Assembly (NCBI GenBank): GCA_964388275.1
Contig: CAYLZD010000002.1
Location: 131,089-195,088 of the forward strand
Source of the DNA: an uncultured Chromatiales bacterium
GTDB taxonomy: Bacteria > Bacteroidota > Ignavibacteria > SZUA-365
DNA: 64,000 nt
Direction of reading: 5' to 3'
This document shows, in pieces, positions 2,881-64,000 of this stretch. Each line of letters starts with the position of its first letter. The first letter of the stretch is position 1. The position numbers were made by a program, and so were the translations under genes. The notes under the pieces are model-generated. The model did not search any database. It had not been told where the DNA came from and saw nothing but the letters and a program-made list of their open reading frames with translations.

Positions 2881-2979
2881 GCCCGCGCGGGCGTGATCGG
2901 TCTGCATCCCGAAGTCTATTATTCGTATATTCCACCCTCGAACTTTCTTTCGTTCCACAGAGTCGGCAGTGAGGAGCAT

Positions 2980-3318: not shown

Positions 3319-3439
3319 CCGCGCATACTCCGGCGTGACGCGGCTCGGATTTTCCCAGGCCCCCGCGTCATCCGAGCCAGCTTGTCCCGCCGGTTATTCC
3401 GAACGGCAACGCGCGCAATGTTTCAAATCGGAGAATCTC

Positions 3440-3796: not shown

Positions 3797-3955
3797 CGCC
3801 TGCAAACTCCGCCACGGACTCCGCCCCCGCCGTCCGTTTACGGATATCGCCTGCGCCCCCACGGCACGCGCGAGCGCGCCCGGACTCAAATGCCGGACAC
3901 CCCTGCGATATTTTCCGCTTCGGACCGGGAACAAAATCTTCCCCCCGCCGGTACA

Positions 3956-6706: not shown

Positions 6707-7072
6707 ATGCCCGAGAATCTCGACACCGCCCGCACGGGCGAGAATTTCGCCGCTTCACATCTCGAATCGCTCGGGTACGAAATACTCGAGCGCAATTACA
6801 GATACGGCCGCGGAGAAATAGACATTATTGCCCGCGATGGCGGCGCCACCGTCTTCATAGAAGTGAAGACCAGAACGAACGACCGGTTCGGCGCGCCCGA
6901 AAGCTCCGTCACGCGCTCGAAACAAAGGCAATTGGCCCGCGTTGCGACGGGATGGCTCCTCGAAAACGGCTTTCCCGATGCTCCGTGCCGCTTCGACGTG
7001 CTCGCAATCACCTGGGAAAAAGGCGTGCCGGTTTTCAACCTCATCCAACATGCTTTCACTCTCGGGCTGTGA
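6707..7072 (+). CDS. yraN: YraN-family (UPF0102) endonuclease
   Basis: 121 aa with the conserved GE.DIIA....FIEVKTR core of UPF0102. Confidence 0.8.
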   Translation: MPENLDTARTGENFAASHLESLGYEILERNYRYGRGEIDIIARDGGATVFIEVKTRTNDRFGAPESSVTRSKQRQLARVATGWLLENGFPDAPCRFDVLAITWEKGVPVFNLIQHAFTLGL

Positions 7073-7188
7073 TATCCAGAAGCCGGATATTCCCTTCCGG
7101 CATCAGCCGGCAACAGGAAAGGGCGCTGAAAAATGAATTGCTTGTATCGTCCCGGAATCGTATTGTCCGGCAACCGACGAGGGAAGAA

Positions 7189-9444
7189 ATGACGATTACG
7201 GGCGCCGCGCGGACAATCTACCGAAATAATTCTCCGAAAATCCGGATCAAGCGTTCGTCATACGGGGCTTTATTGGCCCTCCTGCTTATGGTTGCCGTGC
7301 CTCCCGCGGCTCGCGCCCAGGGCTGGGGATGGCAGAACCCCCTTCCCCGCGGCGGAGTGATCGGCGATATCGTTGCGCTCGGCACTAACTTCGCCGTCGC
7401 CGTCTGCGACGACGGCAACGCGCTGGTCACCTACGACATGGGACGCAACTGGCACCGGAAACCGCTTGCGTACTCCTCTCTCGACCGCGTCCATTGCTTC
7501 GGCGATTCGATCGTGATCGCCGCCGGACAGAACGGCCTGATCGTGCGTTCCACGGACTGGGGATGGACCTGGCGCCGAATCCGTGAGGGGTCCGTGACGG
7601 CCGGCTATCTCACGGATTTGGCGGGCATCGACGACTCGTCGGCGGTCGTTAAAATGGGTTATGACGAACTTTTCGTTACCACCGACCGCGGCCTGAACTG
7701 GGAAAGGCGCGCCATGGGAGTCGCTCCGGATCAGGTGCGATCGGTGTTCATCCAGTCCCCGACGCTCTGGTGGGCCAATACCGGCAACGCGCTTTACCGT
7801 TCCGGCGATGCCGGCGCGACTTGGAAACGCGACACCTCTCTCGATGCGCGCGGATTGGCGCGCCTCGTTTACGTTGACAGCCTTTTCGGCTGGCAGGTCC
7901 GCGACGGCCGCGTGTTGCGCACAAGAGACGGCGGAGTGACCTGGACCGAGATGGATATCTACGGTTTCGAGTACAATCTGGACGTGTTCACAACGGGAAC
8001 GGACAGACAGACCGTTTTTATACTCAGCGACGGGCAATACGTCGTGAATAAATCAACCGACGGAGGCGAGACATGGAACATCAGCCTTACCGCCGCGGCA
8101 TTTCCTGAAAGCTCGCCTTACGCGGGCGCCTTCACATCCGAAAGCGTGGGATACATCGCGGGTGATGGCGGCAGAATTCTTCGCAGCTCCGACGGCGGAG
8201 AATCGTGGGCGATCGTGCACGGCGCCGGTTTCCTCGGCAGCATTGCGCAGGTGCTTTTCCAGGACCCTCGCAACGGCGCGGCGCTCACGCACTCCAACAC
8301 CGTCCTGGTGACCTCGAACGGGGGCGCGCGCTGGGACGAGACCGTACCGGCTGCAGGTTATACCATCCGTAAAGCATCCATGTACAATCGGCAGGAAGGT
8401 TACGGCTTCGGTTTCGATAAAACCTGGCAGCCGTATCTGTTTCGCGCGTCGGACCAGGGGAGAACCTGGACACTCGCCGGTTCACTTCCGATATCCTACG
8501 ATCCGCAACTTTTCGCCCAGCCGGAAGGCATATTCTCCGTTTCCCGCGACACTGTGCTGATCGGAGTGTCATACGGCGTGCTTCTGCTCAGCACGGATGC
8601 CGGCGTTTCATGGGATTCCATACTGGTCAATCGGGAATTCGCCTCGCAATACGGAACAGGGAGGAATATGTTTGTATTCCCTCCCGGCCGGATTGTCTAC
8701 GTCGGAGGCAACGGCATCGGCCGGTCCGCTGATTTCGGTCGCACCTGGGATTATTCGTGGTCCCCGAACAGGCAATACATTTCTTCAAGCCAGTTCGTAA
8801 GTCCTCTGAAAGGCTTCGCGCTGCTTTCGGGACCGGGCGGCAGCGAATTATACCGCACGACTGACGGAGGCGTGAGCTGGGAAATACTGCCGAAAACCGG
8901 ATTCCAGTTGTTTCAATTTTTCAACGAGCATGACGCCATCGCCATCGGAACCGGCGGGGACGGAGGGAGCGTTATCTACAAAACCTACAATGGCGGGAGC
9001 GACTGGTCGGAATTTCCATTGAAGGAACGCGTGGCTTGGTCCGGCTGGACCTTCCTCAACAGCGATCTCGGTTGGGCGTGGGGTTATTCCGGAGAAATCA
9101 GAAACACCTCCAACGGCGGCCTGGCTTCCGGCGGATCGGCGCCCCAAGCGCCGGGAGATCCGCAAATCGGAGCGCCTTACCCGAATCCGTTCTCGATTTC
9201 GCGTCATAGCGCCATGAGCGTTCCCATTGCACTCCCCTCCCGGGAGATCTCGTATTCGCTGACCATATTCGACGCGCTCGGCCGTTTGTCTCCGGTCCTG
9301 CCGTCGGCAGCGCGGCGTGAAACCGCAAGAACGGGGACCTTCGAGGAATCCTTCATCCTGCAATCACTGAAGCCGGGAATGTACATACTGAGGCTGTTCG
9401 CGCGCGGCCGGACTCATTCCCGCGCTTTTCTTGTGGTGAAATAG
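7189..9444 (+). CDS. Secreted BNR/Asp-box beta-propeller protein with a T9SS C-terminal sorting domain (type A)
   Basis: Signal peptide (LLALLLMVAVPPAARAQG). At least 9 Asp-box motifs of the form S/T-x-D-x-G-x-T/S-W (STDGGETW, SSDGGESW, TTDGGVSW and others). C-terminal ~80 aa resemble Por-secretion tails (YSLTIFDALGR...GMYILRLFARG). True start is ATG 7189, not 6952. Confidence 0.65.
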   Translation: MTITGAARTIYRNNSPKIRIKRSSYGALLALLLMVAVPPAARAQGWGWQNPLPRGGVIGDIVALGTNFAVAVCDDGNALVTYDMGRNWHRKPLAYSSLDRVHCFGDSIVIAAGQNGLIVRSTDWGWTWRRIREGSVTAGYLTDLAGIDDSSAVVKMGYDELFVTTDRGLNWERRAMGVAPDQVRSVFIQSPTLWWANTGNALYRSGDAGATWKRDTSLDARGLARLVYVDSLFGWQVRDGRVLRTRDGGVTWTEMDIYGFEYNLDVFTTGTDRQTVFILSDGQYVVNKSTDGGETWNISLTAAAFPESSPYAGAFTSESVGYIAGDGGRILRSSDGGESWAIVHGAGFLGSIAQVLFQDPRNGAALTHSNTVLVTSNGGARWDETVPAAGYTIRKASMYNRQEGYGFGFDKTWQPYLFRASDQGRTWTLAGSLPISYDPQLFAQPEGIFSVSRDTVLIGVSYGVLLLSTDAGVSWDSILVNREFASQYGTGRNMFVFPPGRIVYVGGNGIGRSADFGRTWDYSWSPNRQYISSSQFVSPLKGFALLSGPGGSELYRTTDGGVSWEILPKTGFQLFQFFNEHDAIAIGTGGDGGSVIYKTYNGGSDWSEFPLKERVAWSGWTFLNSDLGWAWGYSGEIRNTSNGGLASGGSAPQAPGDPQIGAPYPNPFSISRHSAMSVPIALPSREISYSLTIFDALGRLSPVLPSAARRETARTGTFEESFILQSLKPGMYILRLFARGRTHSRAFLVVK

Positions 9445-19949: not shown

Positions 19950-22595
19950 TCATATGCCGTCCCAGAATCCGTCAAGCGCTGCGGCCACGGCTTCGGGGGA
20001 TTCGGCGGGCGCGTCATGGCCGCAGTCCGGCACTATTACGAGCTTCGAATCCGGAATAAGTTCCGCCATGCGTCTGGAAATATCGGAATAAACGCCGTCT
20101 CGATCACCCGCGATCACGAGTGTCGGGATGGTCAGGCCGGGCAGGACTGTCCACAAGGGATTCATCGCTCCCTGTCCCAGCCCCTCGAGAGCGAGCGCAT
20201 ATCCGGCGGAGCTTCCGCTCATACGCTCGTTCTTTTCTCTTCTTCGCGCGGTTTCCATGTGAACACGGCGTGTCAGAACAGGATTGCCGGCCCATCCGTC
20301 CACGAAACTCTCCAGTCCTTCTTCGAGGATCCTTCGCGCAAGGCGTCGGTCCTCGACGAGGCGCCGTTCCCTGGCGGCTTGATCTTCGATTCCCGGGGAT
20401 GCGCTGATCAGCGCCAGGCCGGCGACGCGTTCAGGATGCGACAGGGCGAAGTGCAGAGCCGCGCGGCCACCCAGCGAATAGCCGGCAAGATGCGCTCTGT
20501 CGGTCCCTATGCGGTCGAGAACGGAAAGAAGCATATCGTCAAGGCGTTCGAACGAGTACCATTCCACGCTTTGCGGACAGGGCGAGGATCCGTGTCCGGG
20601 CAGGTCTACCGCAATTACGGAACGGCCGGCCGACATGAATTTCGCGGCTTGTTCCCACGATGCCCCGCTCCTTGTGAATCCGTGCAGGAGAATTACAGGC
20701 GCCAGGCGCCCGGGCCCTCGTCTGAGCAAACGCCATGCAAGAGCCGCCGCTTCCGCTTCGTCGCTTGTAGTCGATGAGCGGAGGACCGGCCGGTCTTCCA
20801 ACGCTTTTTCAACTTTACCGGCCACGAAGGCCCGCATCGAGCGCGCTGCTTCGGTATTCGACCTGAATTCGATTATACGGGTTCCTGAGGCCGCGACCGA
20901 AGCTTCGAGAAGGCGGCTGTAATGTCCGGCATCCTCGGCCGAGTGGTACTCGATGCGAAAGGCCCGCGCTATTGCTTCGAGGTTCATCCCGTGCGGTGTG
21001 ACGAAGTGTTCGGTGAAAGCCGGCTCGAATTCACGAACGGCCAGCTGGTTGAAAATTTCCCCCCCGTTGTTGTTGATCACCACAATGGTGAGCGCGGCGT
21101 CGGAATTCCTGCACGCAAGCAGTCCGTCCAGATCGTGCAGAAAGGCGATATCGCCGGTGAGAAGAACTGTTGTGCCGCCGCGGGCCCTGGCGATTCCGGT
21201 CGCCGTGGCAGTGATGCCGTCGATTCCGTTGACGCCCCGGTTGAAAAAGACGTCGATATCGTGTTTCGATGAGGTCAGGTAGGTCTCAAGATCGCGTATG
21301 GGCATGCTGCTGGAAACCACAAGAGCCGCGCCGTCGGGCAACACGGCGTGGAGGCGGTGATATGCCTCGCCCACGAAAGCGTCGTCCAGGCCCTCCAGGG
21401 CGTCCGCGAGAGCGGCTCGGGTTTCGGCATCGGCCGCGACAATGCGCCGAGCCCACGAATGGTCGAAGGCGCCGTGCGGGCGTTGTTCAAACTCGTCCGC
21501 CAGCGCCTCCAGCAGAAGGGAGGGTTCGGTGGCGATTTGCGCGGATACCAGATGGTCGGGATCGTTGCGGCGAATGGAATTCGATATCGCGATCTGTTCC
21601 GCCTCTTCGCAGGATGCGAGGAATTTTTGAAGCGCGTCAGTAGTCGGCGCGGCGCCGAGCCGCAGGATCAGATCGGGACGAATAGTCTTCGCAAAAGCCG
21701 GAATCGACAAGGCTGCCGCGGCGCCTCCGAGAACGAGTTCCGCCCGCATCGGATCGAAGCGGAGCTGCGATGAGGCTTCCGCAAAAACCGGTGTTCCGAC
21801 AGCCGCGGCGAAGCGGCCCGCTGCGCGGCGGGCCCTTCGGCCGCGCGAATCCGGGCCCGCGATGACCAGGATTCGCTTGTGGAGACGCAGCGCGTCGGCG
21901 ACTCGGGCGACGAGCAGCGCATCCGGGCCGGCGTTCCCATCGACGAATTTCTGCCACGGCCGCCCGTAGCGGCGGCCTGCTATCGCGGATTCCGCCTCCG
22001 CTGAAAGCGTTTCCGGCAGGGCTGCATGGCCTGCGGCAACCGGTGTGGGTTCCAGAGGTTTTCGAAAGGGAATGTTCAGATGAACCGGGCCCGGGGATCG
22101 GCGGTCGTTGCAGAGCGCTATCGCATAACATGCCGTCGATCTCAGGGCGCGGAGTTTGTGCGCATCGGCTTCCGGCTGCGCCGACTCGCTGAACCAGCGG
22201 ACATGCCTTCCGTATAGATGCGTCTGGTCCATGGTCTGCGGCGCGCCGGAGTCCCGTAAATGAGCCGGCCTGTCCGCTGTGAGTATCAGCAACGGCGCAT
22301 CGGACAGATTCGCTTCGCACACCGCCGGAAGATAATTCGCTGCGGCGGTGCCTGACGTGCAGAGCAGAGCGGCGGGGTTGCCGTCGCCTTTGGCAAGACC
22401 GAGCGCGACGAAGCCGGCCGCCCTTTCGTCGATCACCGAATGTGCAGTGATATCGGGATGATTCGAGAAGGCCAGGACCAGCGGTGTCGAGCGGGCGCCC
22501 GGAGATATCACAACACGGCGCAGTCCGCATCGCGCCAGCTCGTCGACGAGGACCCGCGACCAGAGAGTGTTGATATTAGGGAAGTCGGCCTGCAT
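19950..22595 (-). CDS. menD: Bifunctional MenD (SEPHCHC synthase, ThDP-dependent) fused to MenH (SHCHC synthase, alpha/beta hydrolase)
   Basis: N-terminal ~560 aa is a ThDP enzyme with MenD N-terminus (WSRVLVDELARCGLRRVVISPGARSTPL). C-terminal ~280 aa is an alpha/beta hydrolase (ILLHGFTRSGASW, GYSLGGRAAL nucleophile elbow, C-terminal His). Confidence 0.85.
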   Translation of the reverse strand: MQADFPNINTLWSRVLVDELARCGLRRVVISPGARSTPLVLAFSNHPDITAHSVIDERAAGFVALGLAKGDGNPAALLCTSGTAAANYLPAVCEANLSDAPLLILTADRPAHLRDSGAPQTMDQTHLYGRHVRWFSESAQPEADAHKLRALRSTACYAIALCNDRRSPGPVHLNIPFRKPLEPTPVAAGHAALPETLSAEAESAIAGRRYGRPWQKFVDGNAGPDALLVARVADALRLHKRILVIAGPDSRGRRARRAAGRFAAAVGTPVFAEASSQLRFDPMRAELVLGGAAAALSIPAFAKTIRPDLILRLGAAPTTDALQKFLASCEEAEQIAISNSIRRNDPDHLVSAQIATEPSLLLEALADEFEQRPHGAFDHSWARRIVAADAETRAALADALEGLDDAFVGEAYHRLHAVLPDGAALVVSSSMPIRDLETYLTSSKHDIDVFFNRGVNGIDGITATATGIARARGGTTVLLTGDIAFLHDLDGLLACRNSDAALTIVVINNNGGEIFNQLAVREFEPAFTEHFVTPHGMNLEAIARAFRIEYHSAEDAGHYSRLLEASVAASGTRIIEFRSNTEAARSMRAFVAGKVEKALEDRPVLRSSTTSDEAEAAALAWRLLRRGPGRLAPVILLHGFTRSGASWEQAAKFMSAGRSVIAVDLPGHGSSPCPQSVEWYSFERLDDMLLSVLDRIGTDRAHLAGYSLGGRAALHFALSHPERVAGLALISASPGIEDQAARERRLVEDRRLARRILEEGLESFVDGWAGNPVLTRRVHMETARRREKNERMSGSSAGYALALEGLGQGAMNPLWTVLPGLTIPTLVIAGDRDGVYSDISRRMAELIPDSKLVIVPDCGHDAPAESPEAVAAALDGFWDGI

Positions 22596-55925: not shown

Positions 55926-57257
55926 TCAGAGCTTGCTGACGAAATCGTCCAGCACGGTTTTCAGGGACGGTTCGCCGATTTCCTGCAGCTCGTAAGCAAC
56001 GCGCACAGCGGGCTTCGAAATCTTGATTATGCGCTTGAGATCTATCGGAGTGCCGATTATCACGATGTCGCAAGGCGTCTTGGCTATGGTCGTTTCGAGG
56101 TCTTTCACCTGCTTCGCGCCGTAACCCATGGCCGGGAGCAGCACGCCGATCTCCGGATAAATCTCGAAAGTCTTCTTGATGGTTCCGACGGCGTAGGGAC
56201 GGGGATCGATTATGTCGTCAGCGCCGAATTTCTGCGCCGCTATCATGCCGGCGCCGAATTTCATTTCGCCGTGCGTGAGCGTGGGGCCGTCCTCCACGAC
56301 CAGCGCCTTCTTGCCCGTTATCATGTCTCCCCGTTCGACGATTATGGGCGAAGCCGCGTCGATGATACGCGCGCGGGGATTGACGGAGCGTATGTTTTCG
56401 CGGAGTTCCAGCACCTCGTCGGCGCCGGCCGTGTCGATCTTGTTGATGATGACGACATCGGCGAGTCTGAGATTGGCTTCGCTGGGATAATACCCCAACT
56501 CGTCGCCGACGCGGAGCGGATCGGCCACCACAATGTGCATGTCGGGCTTGTAGAACGGCAGATCGTTGTTGCCGCCGTCCCAGAGTATCACGTCGGCTTC
56601 CTTCTCCGCCTTCTCGAGTATGGCGGCGTAGTCCACGCCGGAGTAGATCACCGTCCCGCTGACGATATGCGGTTCGTACTCTTCCATTTCCTCGATGGTG
56701 CACTCGTGTTTCTTCAGGTCGGCCGTGGAGCCGAAGCGCTGCACTTTCTGCTTGTCGAGATCGCCGTAAGGCATGGGGTGCCGGATGGCCACCACTTTGA
56801 GGCCCATTTCCTGGAGTAGCCGCGCGACTTTGCGCGTGGTCTGGCTCTTGCCGCTCCCCGTGCGGACCGCGCAGACCGAGATCACTGGCTTCCTGCTGCG
56901 TATCATGGTCGGCTCGGCGCCGAGGAATTTGAAATGCGCGCCGGCGGCCACCGCGCGCATGCCGATGCCCATGACATGGTCGTAATTGACGTCGCTGTAG
57001 GCGAACACTACTTCCTGAACGGCGTGCTTCGCGATCCATTTCTCGAGTTCGCGTTCCTCGATGATGGGAATGCCCTTGGGGTACAGCTTGCCGGCCAGCG
57101 AGGCGGGATACTTGCGGCCGGCTATGTCCGGTATCTGAGCCGCCGTGAAGGCGATGACGTTATAAAGATGGTTGTCGCGGTAGACGACGTTGAAATTGTG
57201 GAAATCGCGGCCGGCGGCCCCTACGATGATCGTGTTGATGCGTGTTGTTTCGGGCAT
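55926..57257 (-). CDS. DUF1611-family P-loop protein (cyclic 2,3-diphosphoglycerate-synthetase-like)
   Basis: Walker A VRTGSGKSQTT, DGGNND. Overall resemblance to the cDPGS/DUF1611 family is from memory, not from a search. Confidence 0.55.
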   Translation of the reverse strand: MPETTRINTIIVGAAGRDFHNFNVVYRDNHLYNVIAFTAAQIPDIAGRKYPASLAGKLYPKGIPIIEERELEKWIAKHAVQEVVFAYSDVNYDHVMGIGMRAVAAGAHFKFLGAEPTMIRSRKPVISVCAVRTGSGKSQTTRKVARLLQEMGLKVVAIRHPMPYGDLDKQKVQRFGSTADLKKHECTIEEMEEYEPHIVSGTVIYSGVDYAAILEKAEKEADVILWDGGNNDLPFYKPDMHIVVADPLRVGDELGYYPSEANLRLADVVIINKIDTAGADEVLELRENIRSVNPRARIIDAASPIIVERGDMITGKKALVVEDGPTLTHGEMKFGAGMIAAQKFGADDIIDPRPYAVGTIKKTFEIYPEIGVLLPAMGYGAKQVKDLETTIAKTPCDIVIIGTPIDLKRIIKISKPAVRVAYELQEIGEPSLKTVLDDFVSKL

Positions 57258-57293
57258 GCATTCCTCGGTTTTATTTGCGGTGATTGTTCGATT

Positions 57294-58490
57294 TCAGTCT
57301 CTTGCCAGCACGACTTCCCGGATGCGCTCCGCCGCCCAGTCGATGTCTTCCTTCGAGATGATCAACGGGGGCGCGAAACGTATCACGTTGTCGTGGGTTT
57401 CCTTGCAGAGTATGCCGGCTTTCATGAGGTCCTCGCAGTACGGACGGGCCTGGGTGTCGAGCACGAAGCCGATCCAGAGTCCGCGCCCTCTGACTTCCAC
57501 CACATGCCTGCTCGGAATCTCACGCAGGCGCTTCATCAGATAGGATCCGAGTTCCGCGGATCTCTCGGGAAGTTTTTCTTCCACCAGAACGGACAACGCG
57601 GCACGCGCCACCGCCGCGCCGAGTGGGTTTCCGCCGAAGGTGGAACCGTGATCGCCCGGCTTGAAGACGCCCAGTATCCCGCGGCTCGACAGCACGGCGG
57701 ATACCGGATAGAATCCTCCTGAAAGCGCCTTGCCGATGATGACCATGTCCGGCCTGATGCCCTCGTATTCGAAGGCGAAAAGACGGCCGCTGCGCCCGAG
57801 GCCGGATTGTATCTCGTCGCAGATGAGCAGCACGTTGTTCTGACGGCAGATCTCGGCGGCCTCGCGCAGATAGCCCTCGGGCGGGACGATGATGCCCGCT
57901 TCGCCCTGTATCGGCTCCACCAGGAAAGCCGCGGTGTCGGGCGTGACGGCCGCTCGTAGCGCCTCGATGTCGCCGTACTTCACTATGGGGAAACCCGGAG
58001 TGAGGGGGCCGAAGGATTCCCTGTACTGGGGCTCGGTGGAAAAGCTGACGATCGTGACAGTGCGCCCGTGGAAATTGTCGGACGCGCAGATGATCTCGGC
58101 CTTGCCGTCGGGTATGCCTTTCACGGTGTATCCCCATTTGCGCGCGGCCTTGACCGCGGTTTCCACCGCTTCCGCGCCGGAATTCATGGGCAGCGACATC
58201 TCGTAGCCGGTGAGGTCGTGCAGTTGCTTGTACAGGAGCGGCAGCTGGTCGTTGCGGAAAGCGCGGCTCGTCAGCGTGACGTTCTTCGCCTGAGAGACGA
58301 AGGCCTCCATGATCTTGGGATGGCAATGACCCTGGTTCACGGCCGAGTATGCGGCGAGGCAGTCCAGATAGCGGTTGCCTTCCACGTCGGTCACCCACGC
58401 TCCGCTCGCTTCCCTGATTACCACGTCCAGAGGATGATAGTTGTGCGCGCCGTAAAGATCTTCGAGCGCGATGTAGTCTTGTGTTTTCAT
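57294..58490 (-). CDS. argD: Acetylornithine (class III) aminotransferase
   Basis: PLP fold with LLICDEIQSGLGRSGRLFAFE and the IGKALSGG lysine motif. Confidence 0.85.
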   Translation of the reverse strand: MKTQDYIALEDLYGAHNYHPLDVVIREASGAWVTDVEGNRYLDCLAAYSAVNQGHCHPKIMEAFVSQAKNVTLTSRAFRNDQLPLLYKQLHDLTGYEMSLPMNSGAEAVETAVKAARKWGYTVKGIPDGKAEIICASDNFHGRTVTIVSFSTEPQYRESFGPLTPGFPIVKYGDIEALRAAVTPDTAAFLVEPIQGEAGIIVPPEGYLREAAEICRQNNVLLICDEIQSGLGRSGRLFAFEYEGIRPDMVIIGKALSGGFYPVSAVLSSRGILGVFKPGDHGSTFGGNPLGAAVARAALSVLVEEKLPERSAELGSYLMKRLREIPSRHVVEVRGRGLWIGFVLDTQARPYCEDLMKAGILCKETHDNVIRFAPPLIISKEDIDWAAERIREVVLARD

Positions 58491-58516
58491 TCGTAATCCG
58501 TTGATCGTTGTTGTTT

Positions 58517-59449
58517 TCAGTCTTCGTCGAAAAGCATCGTGAGCAGTGCCATGCGCACGTGCAGCCCGTTGCGCGCCTGGCGGAAATACGCCGCCCGGGG
58601 ATCGCAGTCAACCGCGGGATCGATCTCCACCGAGCGGGGCAACGGGTGCATCACTATGGCGTCCGGTTTCATGCGGCGGAGAACCCCGGCGTCGATGTCG
58701 TATCTGGACGTGTCCAGGTCGCGGCCGCCGAGGCGGTCCCGGTCGATGCGCGTCTGGTATACGACGTCCACCGAGGAAATTGCTCTTTCAGTCGAATTAA
58801 GCAGCTCGTAGGACACTTCGCGTTCGTCGAGGTAAGCGAGTATGTCGGGACGCATCTGCATTTCGTCCGGGGCGATGAAGTAGAGCTTCGTGCGCTCGAA
58901 CTTGGCCAGCAGGTAAGCGAGCGAGCGGGCCGTGCGGCCCCTATCGAGGGCGCCGATCAGAGCCACGGAGAGTCCGTCGAGTTTATTGCATTCGTCGTAG
59001 ATGGTGTAGAGATCCAGCAGGGCTTGCGTGGGATGCTGGCCTCCGGTTCCGTCGCCCGCGTTCACCACCGGCACAGGCGACACGGCGGCGGCGCGTTTGG
59101 CGCCCCCGTCTTCATGATGGCGCAACACTATCGCGTCGCAGTAATTGGCGATGATGCGTATCGTGTCCTCAATCTGCTCGCCCGCTACTTCCGATGAAAA
59201 CTCGCGGGCCTGCTCGGTGGAGAGCACGCGCCCGCCGAGCCGGCACATCGCCGCCTCGAAGGAGAAACGGGTCCGCGTGGAAGGCCTGTAAAACAGCGTG
59301 GCCATTATGCGGTTCTCGTAATCGCGGGTGCCGCCGCGCGCTGCTATCCGCGCCATGGCGCGGGTGCGCTCGAAAAGCTCCATGAGCAACGGCAGCGTGA
59401 ACTGTTGCGATTCTATTACGTGCGGCAGTTTCATTTCCGGAATCTCCAC
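58517..59449 (-). CDS. pyrB: Aspartate-carbamoyltransferase-like catalytic chain (ATCase/OTCase superfamily)
   Basis: STRTR, HPTQALLD, and C-terminal MHPLPRSVEI..AAYFRQARNG (ATCase-type HPLP, not OTCase HCLP). Confidence 0.65.
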   Translation of the reverse strand: MEIPEMKLPHVIESQQFTLPLLMELFERTRAMARIAARGGTRDYENRIMATLFYRPSTRTRFSFEAAMCRLGGRVLSTEQAREFSSEVAGEQIEDTIRIIANYCDAIVLRHHEDGGAKRAAAVSPVPVVNAGDGTGGQHPTQALLDLYTIYDECNKLDGLSVALIGALDRGRTARSLAYLLAKFERTKLYFIAPDEMQMRPDILAYLDEREVSYELLNSTERAISSVDVVYQTRIDRDRLGGRDLDTSRYDIDAGVLRRMKPDAIVMHPLPRSVEIDPAVDCDPRAAYFRQARNGLHVRMALLTMLFDED

Positions 59450-59455
59450 GTCTTG

Positions 59456-60406
59456 TCAGGGGTGAATGTGCGTCCCGGCCGCTCCGTCCAGCGCGTCGAG
59501 GAGATGTTCGTAGGAGGTGATGATGACCTCCTTTCCGCCTGCGGCCAGGAAGCGCAGGGCTGATTCGACTTTGGGACCCATGCTGCCCGGCGGAAATTGC
59601 CCTTCCTCGTAGTGCCTGCGCATCTCCCCGGCCGGAATCCGGTCCAGTCCTCTCTGCGAGGGTTTCTTGAAGTCGAGATACACTTTGTCCGCGTCGGTGC
59701 TTATCACGAAAAGGTCCACACCCAATTCGAGCGCGAGAAGCGCGGAGGCGCGGTCCTTGTCTATCACCGCCTCGCAGCCGTCCACGCGGTGGTTTTCCCT
59801 CTCGATGACGGGTATGCCGCCTCCGCCCAGGGCGATGACTATCATGCCGAGATCCAGCACGGTCTTTATCACGTCCTTCTCGAAAACGTCCACAGGTTCG
59901 GGCGAGGGCACCACGCGTCTCCAGCCGCGCGCGGAATCTTCCACCACGTCCCAGCCGAGCAGCCGCCTTTTCTCCTCGGCGACGCGCTTTGTGTAGAAGG
60001 GTCCTATTGGCTTGGTGGGATTCCGGAAGGCCGGATCCAGGGGATCTACGCGCACCTGCGTGAGCACGGTCATGACCGGCGTGTTCAGACCGGCGAGGCG
60101 GAGTTCCTCCTCCATTGCGCGTTGCAGCAGATAGCCGATCTCGCTTTGCGTGGTCGCCACACACACGTCGAGCGGATGCGTGTAAACCTCGCCGGCGGCG
60201 CGCTCGGACCGCAGCAGGGCGGCGCCCACCTGGGGTCCGTTGCCGTGCGTGATCACGATGCGCCAGCCGCGCTCCACCATGCGGACGATGCTCCGCGCAG
60301 TGGCATGGGCGTTTGCGAGCTGTTCGCCGATTATGCCGCGTTCGCCCGCGCGTATGAGGGAATTTCCGCCGATGGCGACGAGCGCCGTGCGGATCTGGGG
60401 CGGCAT
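59456..60406 (-). CDS. arcC: Carbamate kinase
   Basis: ALVAIGGNSL...VITHGNGPQVG N-terminal signature and amino-acid-kinase fold, ~315 aa. Confidence 0.85.
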   Translation of the reverse strand: MPPQIRTALVAIGGNSLIRAGERGIIGEQLANAHATARSIVRMVERGWRIVITHGNGPQVGAALLRSERAAGEVYTHPLDVCVATTQSEIGYLLQRAMEEELRLAGLNTPVMTVLTQVRVDPLDPAFRNPTKPIGPFYTKRVAEEKRRLLGWDVVEDSARGWRRVVPSPEPVDVFEKDVIKTVLDLGMIVIALGGGGIPVIERENHRVDGCEAVIDKDRASALLALELGVDLFVISTDADKVYLDFKKPSQRGLDRIPAGEMRRHYEEGQFPPGSMGPKVESALRFLAAGGKEVIITSYEHLLDALDGAAGTHIHP

Positions 60407-60409
60407 GGC

Positions 60410-61327
60410 TTACTTCATCAGTTCGTGCATCACTGCTTTCTGCACGTGCAGGCGGTTCTCGGCTTCCTGGAAAACAACCGAATACGGAGCGTCGATGACC
60501 TCGTCCGTCACTTCATCGCCGCGATGCGCGGGCAGGCAGTGCATGAATACGGCGTCGCTCTTCGCATGCGACATCAGCTCGGCGTTCACCTGGAAGGGAC
60601 GGAACACCGATTTGCGCGCCTCTGTCTCCGTTTCCTGACCCATCGAAGCCCAGACGTCGGTGTAAACGGCGTCGGCGCCCCTGACACCCGCTGCCGGGTC
60701 GTTCACGACTTCAATGACGGCGCCGGTGCTCTTGCCGTCCTCCGCCGCCTGCTCGTAAGCCGAGGCGTTGGGTTCGTAGCCGCTCGGGCACGCGATCGTG
60801 ACGTGCGCGCCCAGCCGCGCGCCGGCGAACATCAGCGAATGCGCCACGTTGTTGCCGTCACCCACGTAGGTCAGCTTGCGACCCTTGAGTTCGCCCTTGA
60901 GTTCGTACAGCGTGAAGAAGTCCGCCAATGCCTGGCAGGGATGCGAATAGTCGGTGAGACCGTTTATGACCGGCACCGAGGCGTGTTTCGCCATGTCGAT
61001 CACGATCTGATGCGCGAAGGTGCGGATCATTATGCCCTGCACCATGCGTTCGAGGTTCTTGGCCACGTCGTAAACCGATTCCCGCTTGCCGAGGCTGATT
61101 TCGGCCGGCGACAGGTAGAGCGAGTAACCGCCGAGCTGCTGTATGCCGATGTCGAAGGTCGTACGCGTGCGCAGCGAGGGTTTTTCGAAGATCATTGCGA
61201 GCGCCTTGCCTTTCAGCGCTTCTGCGTATTTCATGCGGTCGGCTTTCATGCCGGCCGCCAGGCGGAAGAGATCCAGGATTTCCTCGCCTGATACGTCCCT
61301 GATGCTCAGGAAGTCTTGTGCTTTCAT
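60410..61327 (-). CDS. argF: Ornithine carbamoyltransferase
   Basis: SLRTRTTF, HPCQALAD, DVWASMG, HCLPAHRGDEV motifs. Confidence 0.9.
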   Translation of the reverse strand: MKAQDFLSIRDVSGEEILDLFRLAAGMKADRMKYAEALKGKALAMIFEKPSLRTRTTFDIGIQQLGGYSLYLSPAEISLGKRESVYDVAKNLERMVQGIMIRTFAHQIVIDMAKHASVPVINGLTDYSHPCQALADFFTLYELKGELKGRKLTYVGDGNNVAHSLMFAGARLGAHVTIACPSGYEPNASAYEQAAEDGKSTGAVIEVVNDPAAGVRGADAVYTDVWASMGQETETEARKSVFRPFQVNAELMSHAKSDAVFMHCLPAHRGDEVTDEVIDAPYSVVFQEAENRLHVQKAVMHELMK

Positions 61328-61738
61328 ATTGTCGTGCTCCTCTCGGACCAGTTATTACCGGGTAAAAGATGAAAATGTCATTTGATGTCGAAAAGCGGAA
61401 CGAGCGCATCCCGCCGCCGCGGCGCGTAAGGCGCGGACGCGGGCTGCGGGGATCAGTGACGTCAGATGGGAGCGTCGGTGCAGTAGTGCTTGAACTGCAC
61501 GATCTTGCGCGAGCGCGTGGCGCCCCGTCGCAGCGGCGTGCGGACGGCCGCCGGCGGCGGGCTTACTTGCTCCTGTATTTTCGTCCTTATGCTCGTCATT
61601 GTGCGTTGTGCCTGGCGTTCAAACCGCCCCATTATTACAAAGATCGGCAAAGCGGAAGCGAGAGGCAAACTTCACGGCACGTTTGAACCGCCATGACACC
61701 AGAGCAATATTTTGCGCTCCGCGCAACCACGACACGTT

Positions 61739-61783
61739 GGTGAATATGGTGAATTCGGTGAATACGGTGAATGGGGTGATTTC
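61739..61783. repeat. 9-bp tandem repeat GGTGAATNN x5
   Basis: ggtgaatat ggtgaattc ggtgaatac ggtgaatgg ggtgatttc, read directly from the sequence. Confidence 0.9.
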
Positions 61784-61899
61784 GGACATACACCCCCTTT
61801 CCACTTCCCCTTTCCCCGTTTTCAACCGCCATAACGCTACTTCCAACGGTCTTGATTTTTCCTGGTGTTTCCTTTTCATCAAGGAAATGAAAGTACAAA

Positions 61900-62400
61900 T
61901 GCAAATTTGCAGGCGTCCTCGTGTCGACTTGCATTAGTCCTTTTGCCGGCTTGCACTGTTTTTCCACCAACTCAAGCGTCCTTCGCGACGACCTGCACAG
62001 CCACTCGTGACGACTTGCCGGAGTCCTCGCGGCAACCTGCACAGCCACTCGCGCGAACCTCCCTGCACTTAACGCGCGCGGAAGAACACTGGAAGCAGAC
62101 TTGCCCGCACTTTTACATGCCCGCACGGCATTTGATGTATACTTACAAGCAGCTTTTACTCACTCGCAGACGTCCTCGCGGCAACTTCCTCCGGCACTCG
62201 TGACAATTTGCAGGCGTCCTCGTGAAGATCTGCTCAGGCACTCGAGCAATCTTTCCGGCACTTGGCGCCCGCTGACGAACACTCGAAGCACGCTCGCACA
62301 GGCGCTTATGAGGATTTGCAGGCGTCCTCGCGGTGACTTGCTCCGGTACTCGTCACAACTTTGCGGCGCCGGATACATGCCGGCTAGCGCATTGGAAGCA
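61900..62400. repeat. Degenerate tandem repeat array, unit ~35-45 bp (core CACTCG(T)GACAA(T)TTGCAGGCGTCCTCGCGG(C/T)(A/G)ACTTGCTCCGG)
   Basis: TTGCAGGCGTCCTCG occurs three times (about 61907, 62207, 62316). CACTCG recurs about every 44 bp. CCTCGCGGCAAC occurs twice. No intact ORF with protein-like composition. Confidence 0.7.
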
Positions 62401-62705
62401 TACTTGCACTATACGCTCTGGAGCACGGTGCGCAATCGCAACCGACGACCGCGCCTCCCCGGTGTCTTTCCGCTTTCAAGCATACTCATGCCAACCAGTT
62501 GCAGCAGATTGAAAGCGATCATTCCGCACAAGAGAAAGACGGTTTTAGGCAAGCGGGATTAGGACTCTACTATGTTATTTCATTATAACCCGGCTCAGGT
62601 AAAAGCATCGCACTCGCGGCACGTAAACTGTACCTAAGATGGATTGCCTCAGGAAGCACAAAAAACACAAATATTTTGTGATCTTTTTGCCATTTGTGGC
62701 AGATA

Positions 62706-62951
62706 CTACCGTCTATTAATCCTGTCGGATAAATAGGCGCGCGCGAAAAGACGGAGCGACGGATCTTGCTTCCAGACGAAATGATCCCCGCGTTTTTCCA
62801 CCTCGCTCTCGTCGATCTTCTCGAAACGATGCTTTGCCCCGTTGCGGAGGTCTACGCTTTCTTCGTCCAGATATTTATAAGAGACCGGTTCATTTTTTTC
62901 TTTGCGAAGGATGCGGTACTCGATTGGTCCGAGTATCATGCCCTGATTCAC
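62706..62951 (-). CDS. Hypothetical small protein (low-GC ORF)
   Basis: 81-aa ORF with GC content and codon usage unlike the rest of the window. No recognised domain. Confidence 0.3.
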   Translation of the reverse strand: MNQGMILGPIEYRILRKEKNEPVSYKYLDEESVDLRNGAKHRFEKIDESEVEKRGDHFVWKQDPSLRLFARAYLSDRINRR

Positions 62952-63125
62952 AAACCGCTGGAACGATTCGAGTTGAAGATTTATACCCGGGATTGTAAAG
63001 GACCATGTTCCGGAAGCGGATGAAAGGAAGATGCCTTCCCTTCAAAAAGGTCATAAATCCGGTACCTCTTGACTTTCTCCTGGGGGGGGGTAAGTTTGCC
63101 CAAAATTACTTTCCTTGAGGTTGTC

Positions 63126-63620
63126 ATGAACGGAAATCTCTTACCCGGTGCAGACTGCAGAGTCGATTCCGCGCTCAGTTATTACGATTTGAAGAATATC
63201 TGCCCGAAGTCGCCCCTCGAACTCATCTACCACGCATGCATAGGAGAAGTGACAGGCGAACTTGCCTTCAGTACAAGCTGGTATCAGCCGGGCGTGGCTT
63301 GGGGCGAGGCATATCCGCTTGTTCATGTGGTCATTTCGCCGGTAGTCGAAGCTCTTGGTACGGACGAAAAGCAGAAGGTTGCTGAAGCATCTCAGTGGAA
63401 TTTTACACATCTCACCTGGGTTGGCGAGGTCGGAGTACCCTGGCCTATTCAGCGCATGATGTTTCTTCGTGCAGGCAGGGAATGGCGTAACAGGATCACA
63501 TTCGAAGTGGTCGGCGATTCGCTTGAGAACCTGGAGCTGGGTTTCCTGTACAACGCAGCCACCCGTGGCGACAGCCAGGGAACGATTCCCGTGATCGCAT
63601 TCCCGAACTACACGGCCTAG
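63126..63620 (+). CDS. Hypothetical protein
   Basis: 164 aa from ATG 63126 (GAGG 7 nt upstream). No recognised domain. Lower GC than core genes. Confidence 0.4.
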   Translation: MNGNLLPGADCRVDSALSYYDLKNICPKSPLELIYHACIGEVTGELAFSTSWYQPGVAWGEAYPLVHVVISPVVEALGTDEKQKVAEASQWNFTHLTWVGEVGVPWPIQRMMFLRAGREWRNRITFEVVGDSLENLELGFLYNAATRGDSQGTIPVIAFPNYTA

Positions 63621-64000
63621 ACAGGCACTTTTACATTGTATGTTGTTCTTGACAGGCCGGGGCTGTTCAGGATGGGACTATTCGTTTCCAGTATCGGAAC
63701 AAAGTATATGTACGACATGGAGTGGATTGTTGTATCGTGATTTACAATCCTTTGATTTCTCTACAATACTTCCATAACTATGATCATTTATTGTGTTTCT
63801 TTTTATGCATATAATGCTTTGAGGTAAATTCATGAAATATTCAGGCATGCCATGGGATTCTAATGTTCCCAGAAATTGCTACAGACGAATAATTTCATCC
63901 TATAAATACTATCCCGGCGATGGTGTGCTTTCTCTCAGCATTCCATCGGCCTGCCTGCAAACAAATCGAATATCCAAGATGATATATAGATGCGATGGGA

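What the first reader, a model, noticed from the sequence alone, without database searches (positions are those of the whole stretch)
55926..61327. Arginine-type operon combining OTCase, carbamate kinase, an ATCase-like transcarbamylase, ArgD and a DUF1611 P-loop protein
The minus-strand unit argF-arcC-pyrB-like-argD-DUF1611 has gaps of 3, 6, 26 and 36 bp. Carbamate kinase next to a biosynthetic-looking OTCase and ArgD suggests carbamoyl phosphate is made from carbamate and ATP for anabolism, as in some archaea, rather than by the catabolic ADI pathway. I see no arcA or arcD here. The second transcarbamylase carries the ATCase-type HPLP motif but sits inside an arginine operon. It could be a true PyrB sharing the CK-derived carbamoyl-phosphate pool, or a transcarbamylase with a different substrate, as with acetyl- or succinyl-ornithine transcarbamylases in related phyla.
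Basis: partly seen in the sequence, partly recalled or inferred. Interest (0 to 1): 0.6.

Follow-up and report, generated by a model that had tools for sequence, protein, structure and literature searches.

The report
ArcE arginine operon, unusual transcarbamylase
This is a five-gene bacterial operon for the recently discovered arginine synthetase (ArcE) pathway, most likely breaking arginine down with two ATP gained per molecule; it also carries a conserved aspartate-transcarbamylase-like enzyme whose aspartate-binding residues have been replaced, so what it acts on is unknown.

Summary
The five minus-strand ORFs and their spacing are real, but two gene calls were wrong. The "DUF1611 P-loop protein" has no DUF1611 match. 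It is an orthologue of arginine synthetase ArcE: 62-63% identical, without gaps, to Thermococcales ArcE. ArcE is the ATP-forming arginine deiminase described in 2024. "ArgD" is ornithine-oxo-acid transaminase.

The unit is therefore arcB(OTC)-arcC(CK)-X-rocD(OAT)-arcE, a complete arginine synthetase pathway plus ornithine removal. The missing arcA is explained, and an anabolic carbamate kinase is not needed.

X is the interesting part. It belongs to a monophyletic clade (100/100 bootstraps) nested among plant-type ATCases, and it keeps every carbamoyl-phosphate-site residue. It has lost both ATCase-defining motifs (FxExSTR reads FYRPSTR; RxQxER reads RIDRDR), as well as K84 and D162, and its 240s loop is four residues shorter.

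In every related locus with enough flanking DNA, X sits directly after CK, clustered with OTC and ArcE. This holds across three gene orders and apparently two bacterial phyla. Canonical relatives never show this linkage. X is probably a carbamoyltransferase with a new or re-wired acceptor site.

I could not test its substrate, or whether the same genomes also hold an ordinary pyrB.

The parts
60410..61327 (-). arcB/argF: ornithine carbamoyltransferase (305 aa). First gene of the operon.
   Evidence: TIGR00658 scores 403 bits against a cutoff of 281. DVWASMG and HCLP motifs are read in the translation. Best solved relatives are 1a1s/1pvv at 359 bits. All cluster copies carry SLRTR in place of STRTR.
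59456..60406 (-). arcC: carbamate kinase (316 aa).
   Evidence: TIGR00746 scores 365 bits against a cutoff of 358. Best solved relative is 1e19 at 296 bits. It lies 3 bp after the OTC stop.
58517..59434 (-). ATCase-derived carbamoyltransferase of unknown acceptor ('ATCL', 305 aa from the ATG at 59434; an upstream in-frame GTG at 59449 would give 310 aa).
   Evidence: Pfam OTCace_N + OTCace; TIGR00670 scores 282 against 237, but NF002032 scores 256 against 263. Best solved relative is Arabidopsis PYRB 6ypo at 323 bits. Motifs read FYRPSTR, VAGEQ, GALD, RIDRDR and HPLPRSVE. The clade is monophyletic in 100/100 bootstraps. The gene is always directly downstream of CK.
57294..58490 (-). rocD-type ornithine-oxo-acid (delta) aminotransferase (398 aa), not ArgD.
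   Evidence: TIGR01885 scores 536 against 378; the argD model TIGR00707 scores 367 against 410. PDB 3ruy ornithine aminotransferase scores 543 bits, against 276 bits or less for most acetylornithine aminotransferase entries; one entry deposited under that name, 5viu, scores 440.
55926..57257 (-). arcE: arginine synthetase (ATP-forming arginine deiminase), 443 aa. P-loop reads GSGKS.
   Evidence: 63% identity over 441 aa with 0 gaps to a Thermococci ORF whose ends match the TK2200 primers. 62% identity over 442 aa with 0 gaps to P. furiosus arcE, identified by its hypC/hypD neighbours. No DUF1611 hit. True cDPG synthetase 9sxb matches only at E 1.8e-6 over 110 aa.
61328..62705 (.). Long non-coding stretch upstream of the operon. 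The promoter is not identified. It holds strain-specific direct repeats and is probably not a functional part of the system.
   Evidence: No Pfam-positive ORF, no Rfam hit, and the sigma-70 scan is at chance level. The repeats are and occur only on this organism's own contigs.

Best explanation
The locus is a single operon, arcB(OTC)-arcC(CK)-ATCL-rocD(OAT)-arcE, encoding the arginine synthetase pathway.

Proposed flow. ArcE converts arginine + ADP + Pi to citrulline + NH3 + ATP. OTC phosphorolyses citrulline to ornithine + carbamoyl phosphate (CP). CK converts CP + ADP to ATP + carbamate, which breaks down to NH3 + CO2. OAT pulls the unfavourable OTC step by transaminating ornithine to glutamate-5-semialdehyde/P5C, which leads on to proline or glutamate. 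The net yield is two ATP per arginine without arginine deiminase or an ArcD antiporter.

The fifth protein, ATCL, is an ATCase-derived carbamoyltransferase. It still binds CP and keeps the catalytic residues, but its acceptor pocket has been rebuilt. It is co-inherited with CK and, from the 2-25 bp gaps or 1-4 bp overlaps, probably co-translated with it. It most likely draws on, or feeds, the same CP pool with an acceptor other than aspartate bound in the canonical way.

What is shown: the family assignments, ArcE orthology, conserved linkage, and the residue pattern. What is inferred: the catabolic direction, the single transcript, catalytic activity of each enzyme, and any role for ATCL.
For: ArcE orthology. 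The window protein is 63% identical over 441 aa with 0 gaps to a Thermococci ORF. That ORF's 3' end matches the TK2200 primers (22/22 and 28/29 nt), and its N-terminus matches the primer-encoded TK2200 N-terminus at 9 of 11 residues. The window protein is also 62% identical over 442 aa to P. furiosus P0433, which sits beside hypC/hypD exactly as arcE PF0547/PFC_01860 does in the paper's table.

ArcE biochemistry and pathway: PMC11032458 and PMC13260591.

OTC, CK and OAT assignments.

Conserved cluster. All 9 ATCL-anchored loci with at least 69% identity carry CK and OTC together with ATCL, and the 7 of them whose contigs extend far enough also carry ArcE. None of about 60 canonical ATCase loci do. 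All 6 intact bacterial ArcE-anchored loci carry OTC-CK-ATCL, with or without OAT. There are three gene orders and no other recurrent neighbour.

ATCL residues. In 128 sequences, S52, R54, T55, S80, R105, H134, Q137, R167, R229, R234, P266 and L267 are at least 98% conserved. E50 becomes K/R, K84 is variable, D162 becomes A and Q231 becomes D. The 240s loop is 4 residues shorter. Protein identity across lineages (69-79%) equals or exceeds that of the neighbouring pathway enzymes, and the NJ tree shows no long branch. Both points argue for a functional protein.
Against: No enzyme activity, transcript or regulation was measured. Direction is not fixed by sequence: ArcE is near equilibrium (deltaG0' -6.8 kJ/mol) and can make arginine in vivo, and OAT and CK are reversible. 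The rest of the genome could not be searched for arcA, carAB, argG/H or a canonical pyrB. ATCL passes NCBI's ATCase equivalog cutoff (TIGR00670) and keeps R167, R229 and R234, so aspartate is not excluded. The two subclades carry opposite charges at position 231 (D versus R), which weakens any simple prediction of a cationic substrate.
Confidence: 0.72

Rival explanations
1. Anabolic reading (the first reader's, updated). The operon builds arginine and pyrimidines. CK makes CP from carbamate + ATP, OAT makes ornithine from glutamate semialdehyde, OTC makes citrulline, ArcE makes arginine from citrulline + NH3 + ATP, and ATCL uses the same CP pool.
For: ArcE runs in the synthetic direction in vitro and supports growth on citrulline in vivo. 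The authors suggest a biosynthetic role in organisms that lack ArgG/ArgH. The 'anabolic CK' model for Pyrococcus is in the literature. No arcA, arcD or arginine transporter lies in the cluster.
Against: In T. kodakarensis, arcC deletion has little effect while arcE or arcB deletion causes pyrimidine auxotrophy, and the authors conclude CK is not the CP source. CK-driven CP synthesis needs very high ammonia and bicarbonate. The ArcE equilibrium favours citrulline + ATP. The aminotransferase is the RocD/OAT type, not ArgD. ATCL lacks the aspartate-site motifs that a shared pyrimidine branch would need.
Confidence: 0.13
2. ATCL is a genuine aspartate carbamoyltransferase isozyme with a re-wired active site. 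A cationic residue at position 50 or 231 replaces K84/Q231. It channels arginine-derived CP into pyrimidine synthesis, as ArcE/ArcB do for PyrB in Thermococcus.
For: TIGR00670 scores above its cutoff. R167, R229 and R234 are conserved. Both subclades place a new positive charge in the pocket: K/R50 with D231, or R231 with E162. In Thermococcales, canonical pyrI/pyrB lie a few genes from arcE or arcB, and ArcE/ArcB supply CP for pyrimidines. CK-ATCase channelling is reported in Pyrococcus.
Against: [quoted passage not shown] All 27 canonical ATCases compared, from plant, human, archaeal and bacterial sources, keep E50, K84, D162 and Q231. K84 is free to vary within a clade of at least 70% identity. 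The specificity-determining 240s loop is 4 residues shorter. The nearest canonical relatives are never arc-linked.
Confidence: 0.25
3. ATCL is non-catalytic. It would be a CP-binding chaperone, scaffold or sensor that protects CP or hands it to CK, or that regulates the pathway.
For: The residue pattern fits: the CP site is perfectly kept and position 84 is unconstrained. The gene is always adjacent to CK, with overlapping or very close ORFs. Transcarbamylases are reported to stabilise bound CP strongly.
Against: The catalytic residues H134, R105 and T55, and the acceptor-domain arginines R167 and R229, are about 98-100% conserved. CP binding alone would not require that. No precedent is known to me.
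Confidence: 0.08
4. The 443-aa protein is what databases call it: a cyclic 2,3-diphosphoglycerate synthetase, a generic GTPase, or a DUF1611 protein, unrelated to arginine.
For: Source names for homologues are 'cyclic 2,3-diphosphoglycerate synthase' or 'predicted GTPase'. There is a weak cobW P-loop hit.
Against: The solved cDPG synthetase 9sxb matches only 110 residues at E 1.8e-6, against 575-580 bits full-length to Thermococcales ArcE. There is no DUF1611 hit. The same names are attached to the Thermococcales proteins that the papers list as arcE. Linkage to arcB/arcC is constant.
Confidence: 0.02

Closest known systems
Arginine synthetase pathway, ArcE-ArcB-ArcC, of Thermococcus kodakarensis (Michimori et al. 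2024, PMC11032458; 2026, PMC13260591)
   Same: ArcE is 62-63% identical full-length to Thermococcales ArcE. It is accompanied by OTC and CK, whose best solved relatives are 1a1s/1pvv and 1e19 (Pyrococcus furiosus enzymes, from my own knowledge of those entries). No arcA is present. Ornithine is passed on to proline/glutamate metabolism.
   Different: Here all the genes form one tight bacterial operon, whereas they are dispersed in T. kodakarensis (TK2200, TK0871, TK2158). Ornithine is removed by an OAT. A fifth, ATCase-derived gene is an invariant member.
Arginine deiminase (ADI) pathway, arcABC(D)
   Same: The same two downstream steps (catabolic OTC, CK) and the same logic of substrate-level phosphorylation from arginine.
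   Different: There is no ArcA and no ArcD antiporter in the window. Deimination is done by a P-loop enzyme that also makes ATP, giving 2 ATP per arginine instead of 1.
Aspartate carbamoyltransferase, plant-type unregulated trimer (Arabidopsis PYRB, PDB 6ypo) and its bacterial relatives
   Same: ATCL is 54% identical to 6ypo and 56-62% identical to the bacterial sister group. It shares the same fold domains, STRTR, R105, H134/Q137, R167, R229, HPLP, and the plant-type 'EFSS' 80s-loop insertion.
   Different: E50 becomes K/R, K84 is not conserved, D162 becomes A and Q231 becomes D. The 240s loop is 4 residues shorter, there is one extra residue by the H134 loop, and PRxDE becomes PRSVE. ATCL is always in arc clusters, and canonical relatives never are.
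Ureidoglycine transcarbamylase (UGTCase) of Rubrobacter xylanophilus, an ATCase-branch enzyme with a non-aspartate substrate that feeds CK
   Same: It is a precedent for an ATCase-like protein, annotated as ATCase, that works with carbamate kinase in a catabolic cluster.
   Different: UGTCase is defined by H(T/S)LP and keeps the K84 equivalent. ATCL has HPLP, lacks K84, and sits in an arginine context, not a purine one.
Cyclic 2,3-diphosphoglycerate synthetase (PDB 9sxb)
   Same: A distant P-loop relative of ArcE, and the source of the current database name.
   Different: Only a 110-residue local match at E 1.8e-6. This is not the same family in any functional sense.
RocD ornithine aminotransferase of Bacillus (PDB 3ruy)
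   Same: Best solved match at 543 bits, and it scores above the OAT equivalog cutoff.
   Different: RocD works downstream of arginase in Bacillus. Here OAT is coupled to the ArcE route.

Membership tests
Arginine synthetase ArcE | Full-length homology to the characterised enzyme TK2200 or its Thermococcales orthologues | tested here: met
   63% over 441 aa with 0 gaps to L001, whose ORF termini match the TK2200 primers. 62% over 442 aa with 0 gaps to P. furiosus arcE, identified by hypC/hypD context.
Arginine synthetase ArcE | P-loop NTPase with a Walker A motif, and a distant resemblance to LpxK and cDPG synthetase | tested here: met
   GSGKS is read at residues 134-138. There is a weak cobW P-loop hit and a weak cDPGS match. 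Homologues carry a precomputed weak LpxK Pfam hit. The paper reports the same resemblances.
Arginine synthetase ArcE | Genomic association with arcB and arcC | tested here: met
   Same operon in the window, and the same association in L006-L012, L085, L089 and L092-L094. It is also arcC-adjacent on a haloarchaeal plasmid.
Arginine synthetase ArcE | Complementary absence of arcA in the genome | tested here: inconclusive
   No arcA in the 64-kb window. The rest of the genome could not be read.
Arginine synthetase ArcE | [quoted passage not shown] | not testable with these tools
   Requires an enzyme assay.
   Pfam scan at E <= 0.001 returns only cobW (22 bits). NCBIfam returns nothing.
Cyclic 2,3-diphosphoglycerate synthetase | Strong full-length similarity to the solved or characterised enzyme | tested here: not met
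   9sxb matches at E 1.8e-6 and 30.6 bits, with the best stretch covering 110 residues.
Aspartate carbamoyltransferase (PyrB) | [quoted passage not shown] | tested here: not met
   The window reads RIDRDR. Among 128 clade members, position 231 is D in 114, N in 8, R in 3 and never Q.
Aspartate carbamoyltransferase (PyrB) | FxExSTR motif (E50) | tested here: not met
   The window reads FYRPSTR. Position 50 is K or R in 114 of 128 members, and all 27 canonical sequences have E.
Aspartate carbamoyltransferase (PyrB) | K84 from the neighbouring subunit's 80s loop | tested here: not met
   The window has A. Across the clade the counts are E 79, K 21, A 11 and Q 9. All 27 canonical sequences have K.
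Aspartate carbamoyltransferase (PyrB) | Carbamoyl-phosphate site (STRTR, R105, H134, Q137, HPLP/HPGP) plus R167 | tested here: met
   All are at least 98% conserved.
Aspartate carbamoyltransferase (PyrB) | Score above the curated family cutoffs | tested here: inconclusive
   TIGR00670 scores 281.8 against 236.95 and passes. NF002032 scores 255.7 against 263 and fails.
Aspartate carbamoyltransferase (PyrB) | Pyrimidine-gene context (pyrI, pyrC) or being the sole ATCase of the genome | tested here: inconclusive
   There is no pyrI or pyrC near any arc-linked copy. A sister canonical copy, L016, is followed by a DHOase-like gene. The genome-wide count could not be made.
Ureidoglycine transcarbamylase | H(T/S)LP motif and retained K106 (the K84 equivalent) | tested here: not met
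   HPLP occurs in 128 of 128 members, and the K84 equivalent is not conserved.
Ornithine carbamoyltransferase | DxxxSMG and HCLP motifs, and the TIGR00658 cutoff | tested here: met
   DVWASMG and HCLP are present, and the score is 403 bits against 281. The CP motif reads SLRTR, not STRTR.
Carbamate kinase | TIGR00746 equivalog cutoff, and similarity to solved CKs | tested here: met
   364.8 bits against 358.25. 1e19 scores 296 bits.
   TIGR00707 scores 367 against 410, while the OAT model TIGR01885 scores 536 against 378. The PDB ranking agrees.
ADI pathway operon (arcABCD) | Presence of arginine deiminase ArcA and the ArcD antiporter | tested here: not met
   Neither is found in the window or in any related locus.

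The most novel reading that the evidence does not exclude
The arc-linked ATCase-like clade is a new specificity class of carbamoyltransferase and a regular fourth enzyme of the bacterial arginine synthetase pathway. Either it carbamoylates a non-aspartate acceptor with arginine-derived carbamoyl phosphate, or it phosphorolyses a second ureido compound to feed carbamate kinase for extra ATP. It works in physical or translational coupling with CK.
Probability: 0.45. Interest if true: 0.7.

Novelty: new variant of a known kind. Interest (0 to 1): 0.58.

Why it matters
ArcE was described only in 2024, and only in an archaeon. This locus shows the whole pathway packaged as one operon in uncultured Bacteroidota/Ignavibacteria-type bacteria, and apparently in Acidobacteriota as well. 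It suggests how such organisms could gain two ATP per arginine without arginine deiminase.

Public annotation still calls ArcE 'cyclic 2,3-diphosphoglycerate synthase' or 'GTPase', and calls the extra enzyme 'aspartate carbamoyltransferase'. Metabolic reconstructions of these abundant environmental bacteria will therefore miss the pathway and may wrongly credit them with a pyrB.

The ATCase-like clade is a clean, testable case of a transcarbamylase whose acceptor pocket was rebuilt while its carbamoyl-phosphate site was kept. Identifying its substrate could add a reaction to carbamoyl-phosphate metabolism.

Tried and rejected
DUF1611, cDPG synthetase and generic GTPase were rejected for the P-loop protein.

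ArgD was rejected in favour of OAT.

UGTCase and the DPTCase/DBTCase motifs (H(T/S)LP, HDLP) were rejected for ATCL.

Fetching strain KOD1 itself failed. The 22-nt primer hit a different Thermococci MAG, and the flanking-region primers (dTK2200F1/R1, NExTK2200_F) do not match it. The link to TK2200 therefore rests on the ORF termini, the 90% cluster, and the P. furiosus orthologue.

The PNAS paper's supplement is not held.

Rfam found nothing in the window. The sigma-70 promoter scan was at chance level and terminator hits were not convincing, so operon boundaries rest on spacing and conservation.

I looked for further conserved neighbours such as a transporter, a regulator, proC or putA, and found none.

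I tried to learn the taxonomy of the canonical sister ATCases in order to test paralogy within one lineage. The names were uninformative soil MAG labels.

A literature search for COG2403 returned nothing.

The upstream repeats were checked as a possible regulatory element. They are strain-specific.

The tree is only NJ with Kimura distances.

Structure prediction was not run, because the tool returns no coordinates with which to measure the pocket.

Full report
**1. Observation**

The window carries five co-directional minus-strand ORFs at exactly the reported coordinates:
- 60410-61327 (305 aa)
- 59456-60406 (316 aa)
- 58517-59449 (310 aa, from a GTG)
- 57294-58490 (398 aa)
- 55926-57257 (443 aa)

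The gaps are 3, 6, 26 and 36 bp. Gene callers on sibling contigs, and most homologues, start the third gene at the ATG at 59434 (305 aa), which makes that gap 21 bp. A 564-aa plus-strand ORF over CK/OTC is antisense and spurious.

**2. Family assignments**

- Gene 1 is an ornithine carbamoyltransferase. TIGR00658 scores 403 bits against a cutoff of 281, and the DVWASMG and HCLP motifs are present.
- Gene 2 is a carbamate kinase. TIGR00746 scores 365 against 358.
- Gene 4 is not ArgD. It passes the ornithine-oxo-acid transaminase equivalog (536 against 378) and fails the argD model (367 against 410). Its best solved relative is an ornithine aminotransferase, 3ruy, at 543 bits. Most acetylornithine aminotransferases score 276 bits or less; one entry deposited under that name, 5viu, scores 440.
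- Gene 5 has no DUF1611 match. Pfam gives only a marginal cobW P-loop hit, and NCBIfam gives nothing.

**3. The P-loop protein is ArcE**

Michimori et al. [quoted passage not shown] TK2200 had been annotated as a hypothetical protein, with some homologues called putative GTPases, and it is distantly similar to cyclic-2,3-DPG synthetase and LpxK. With OTC and CK it forms the 'arginine synthetase pathway', which yields 2 ATP per arginine.

I took the gene-specific part of primer ExTK2200_R from the 2026 follow-up paper's supplement and searched the genome collection with it. It hit one Thermococci contig. That contig carries a 448-aa ORF ending ...KNCEKLKK*.

- The longer internal primer dTK2200inR matches this ORF at 28 of 29 nt.
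- The primer-encoded TK2200 N-terminus, MAEKKKKRVLI, matches the ORF's MAEKKRKRVVI at 9 of 11 residues.
- The ORF belongs to a 90%-identity cluster of 201 Thermococcus and Palaeococcus proteins.

The window protein is 63% identical to this ORF over 441 residues with no gaps, at 575 bits.

Independently, the window protein is 62% identical over 442 aa, with no gaps and at 580 bits, to P. furiosus P0433. P0433 lies beside hypC/hypD, exactly as arcE PF0547/PFC_01860 does in the paper's table.

By contrast, the solved cDPG synthetase 9sxb aligns over only 110 residues at E 1.8e-6.

The family is very large. More than 8000 proteins were scored, and sources name them 'predicted GTPase' or 'cyclic 2,3-diphosphoglycerate synthase'.

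**4. What the operon encodes**

ArcE + OTC + CK make up the complete published pathway, and OAT disposes of ornithine.
- The absence of arcA is thereby explained.
- The 64-kb window holds no arcA, arcD, carAB, pyrI or argB/C/J/G/H. Its other genes are RecQ, UvrA, menaquinone genes, glycosyltransferases, Wzm/Wzt, sigma-70 and a T9SS-tagged protein, which is typical of an FCB-group genome.
In T. kodakarensis, however, arcE and arcB, not arcC, are needed to supply carbamoyl phosphate.
- Among solved structures, the OTC and CK here are closest to 1a1s/1pvv and 1e19. To my knowledge these are the P. furiosus enzymes.

**5. The ATCase-like protein (ATCL)**

ATCL scores as ATCase on one NCBI model (282 against 237) and just fails another (256 against 263). 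Its best solved relative is Arabidopsis PYRB 6ypo at 323 bits, against 217 for E. coli.

Residue-level comparison shows an intact carbamoyl-phosphate site: STRTR, R105, H134/Q137, R167, R229 and HPLP. Four residues that are invariant in all 27 canonical ATCases compared (plant, human, archaeal, and several bacterial classes) are replaced:

| E. coli position | Canonical residue | ATCL clade |
|---|---|---|
| 50 | E | K or R |
| 84 | K | variable; A in the window, E in 62% of the clade |
| 162 | D | A |
| 231 | Q | D |

[quoted passage not shown] It says R229 and Q231 bind the beta-carboxylate, and that R167 and K84* position the alpha-carboxylate. It treats FxExSTR as typical of ATCases, and it calls the 240s loop the main specificity determinant.

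ATCL reads FYRPSTR and RIDRDR. Its 240s loop is 4 residues shorter, it has an extra residue beside the H134 loop, and it reads HPLPRSVE where canonical enzymes read HPLPRxDE. It is not UGTCase, which carries H(T/S)LP and keeps K84.

Across 128 clade members, the catalytic and CP residues, and R167, R229 and R234, are at least 98% conserved. Protein identity between lineages (69-79%) is as high as for the neighbouring pathway enzymes. This looks like a functional protein with a redesigned acceptor pocket, not a decaying one.

**6. Linkage and phylogeny**

A metagenome scan with ATCL returned 79 loci. tblastn of the five window proteins against those loci gave this split:
- All 9 loci with ATCL at 69% identity or more have CK immediately upstream, with OTC in the cluster. 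ArcE is found in the 7 of them whose contigs extend far enough.
- The cluster appears in three gene orders: OTC-CK-ATCL-ArcE, ArcE-OTC-CK-ATCL-OAT, and OTC-CK-ATCL-OAT-ArcE.
- The nearest canonical group, L013-L017 (56-62% identity, plant-type, with E50/K84/D162/Q231 intact), has no arc genes nearby. One of them is followed by a dihydroorotase-like gene.
- About 55 more distant ATCase loci have no arc genes nearby either.

Sampling anchored on ArcE instead of ATCL gives the same picture in bacteria:
- L085/L086, which include a complete 5.24-Mb Bacteroidia genome
- L089, on a 1.2-Mb contig with the gene order seen in the Acidobacteriota-type loci
- L092
- L093
- L094

All carry the second transcarbamylase right after CK. 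The gaps are 2-25 bp, or the ORFs overlap by 1-4 bp, and all copies bear the altered signature. Archaeal loci (Thermococci, Pyrococcus, Aciduliprofundum, and a haloarchaeal plasmid with arcC next to arcE) lack ATCL. No other gene family recurs around the cluster.

In the exhaustive search of 1.84 billion representatives, the clade collapses to essentially one 50% cluster. Of the 165 sequences scored (150 best representatives plus 15 references), 123 have the canonical EKDQ signature.

An NJ tree (300 columns, 100 bootstraps) recovers the arc-linked clade as monophyletic in 100 of 100 replicates. It nests among plant-type canonical ATCases, without a long branch.

There are two subclades:
- One has K/R50 + A162 + D231. 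Source names place it in the FCB group (Ignavibacteria, Bacteroidota, Kapabacteria).
- The other has E/A50 + E162 + R231. Its co-clustered ArcE type is named Terriglobales/Acidobacteriaceae by sources.

**7. Mechanism**

Shown here:
- the family assignments
- ArcE orthology
- conserved co-localisation
- the residue pattern

Inferred:
- The operon runs catabolically.
- OTC phosphorolysis is pulled on one side by CK and on the other by OAT.
- ATCL binds CP and transfers, or releases, a carbamoyl group with an acceptor that is not aspartate bound in the canonical way.

Both subclades put a new cationic group in the pocket (K/R50, or R231 anchored by E162) while dropping K84. The acceptor may therefore still be anionic. 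I cannot name it.

One alternative keeps 'aspartate with a re-wired site' alive. In Thermococcales, canonical pyrI/pyrB lie within a few genes of arcE or arcB, and ArcE/ArcB feed CP to pyrimidine synthesis. I give that alternative about 0.25.

**8. Limits**

- There is no genome-wide view, so I could not check for a canonical pyrB, argG/H, carAB or arcA elsewhere.
- There are no transcript or enzyme data.
- The promoter was not identified. The sigma-70 scan is at chance level, which is not surprising for an FCB organism.
- The phylogeny is distance-based.
- The organism names attached to PDB codes 1a1s, 1pvv, 1e19 and 3ruy come from my own knowledge, not from the tool output.

**9. Verdict**

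The locus is a bacterial arginine synthetase (ArcE) pathway operon, a recently described and still mis-annotated system. That explains the 'missing arcA' and removes the need for an anabolic carbamate kinase.

The unexpected element is the invariant ATCase-derived carbamoyltransferase with a rebuilt acceptor site. I found no mention of it in the two ArcE papers or in the transcarbamylase reviews that I could read.

Noticed in passing
window 61896-62407: Degenerate direct repeats of 39-67 nt (5 copies; also a 122-nt pair at 73% identity) in the non-coding stretch upstream of the operon. They include three exact copies of TTTGCAGGCGTCCTCG at 61906, 62207 and 62315. The 16-mer is found only on this organism's own contigs (L002, L003) and not upstream of the operon in other lineages.
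   Followed up: partly
window 61739-61779: Tandem 9-nt repeat GGTGAATAC, 3.8 copies, with a short CCCCTTT array next to it at 61794-61817. It lies inside a called 56-aa ORF on sibling contigs. Meaning unknown.
   Followed up: no
window 60410-61327 and the OTC genes of L006-L012, L020, L024, L085, L089: Every OTCase in these clusters reads S-L-R-T-R in the carbamoyl-phosphate motif, where the review lists S-T-R-T for OTCases (L at that position is listed for SOTCase). The OTC-defining DxxxSMG and HCLP motifs are kept.
   Followed up: partly
L088 (P. furiosus COM1, CP003685.1) 2429-5347; supplementary table of PMC13260591: P. furiosus arcE is the divergent neighbour of hypC-hypD, which are [NiFe]-hydrogenase maturation genes that need carbamoyl phosphate. 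In many Thermococcales the locus tags of pyrI/pyrB lie within about 4-7 of arcE (TK2195/96 vs TK2200; TON_1437/38 vs TON_1432) or of arcB (PF0598/99 vs PF0594). Users of carbamoyl phosphate seem to gather around ArcE-pathway genes.
   Followed up: partly
P0023, P0122, P0410 and others; L091 (NZ_CP147842.1, WDJ58_RS23375): RefSeq/PGAP and UniRef currently name ArcE homologues 'cyclic 2,3-diphosphoglycerate synthase' or 'GTPase'. This includes the Thermococcales proteins that the papers list as arcE. NCBIfam release 20 has no model that hits the window protein.
   Followed up: yes
representatives P0262, P0273, P0309, P0315 and 18 'QKDQ' representatives (e.g. P0274, P0276, P0285): Other ATCase-like cluster representatives, at 42-51% identity to ATCL, also depart from the canonical E50/K84/D162/Q231 signature (GTDH, VADS, EEDH, ERDH). 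A group of 18 has Q at position 50 and lacks R234. These may be further uncharacterised specificity classes.
   Followed up: no
L087 (Ignavibacteria MAG GCA_016720835.1) 6820-8761: In this otherwise identical cluster, CK is called as two fragments and no gene is called where ATCL should lie. These are probably assembly frameshifts, but a decayed copy is possible.
   Followed up: no
L089 13674-15971 and L092 13022-15322: In the loci with the Acidobacteriota-type gene order, the five-gene cluster is followed on the same strand by a malic enzyme fused to a PTA-like domain.
   Followed up: no
window 19950-22595 (-): An 881-aa fusion of a TPP-enzyme module with an alpha/beta-hydrolase (MenD-MenH-like). 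It sits beside a chorismate-binding enzyme and, further along, an acyl-CoA-synthetase-like gene and a UbiA prenyltransferase. This is a menaquinone gene cluster.
   Followed up: no
window 62001-64000: GC content drops from about 0.60 to 0.50, and the ORFs there (62706-62951, 63069-63620) have no Pfam match. This may be a small foreign or fast-evolving segment bordering the operon.
   Followed up: no
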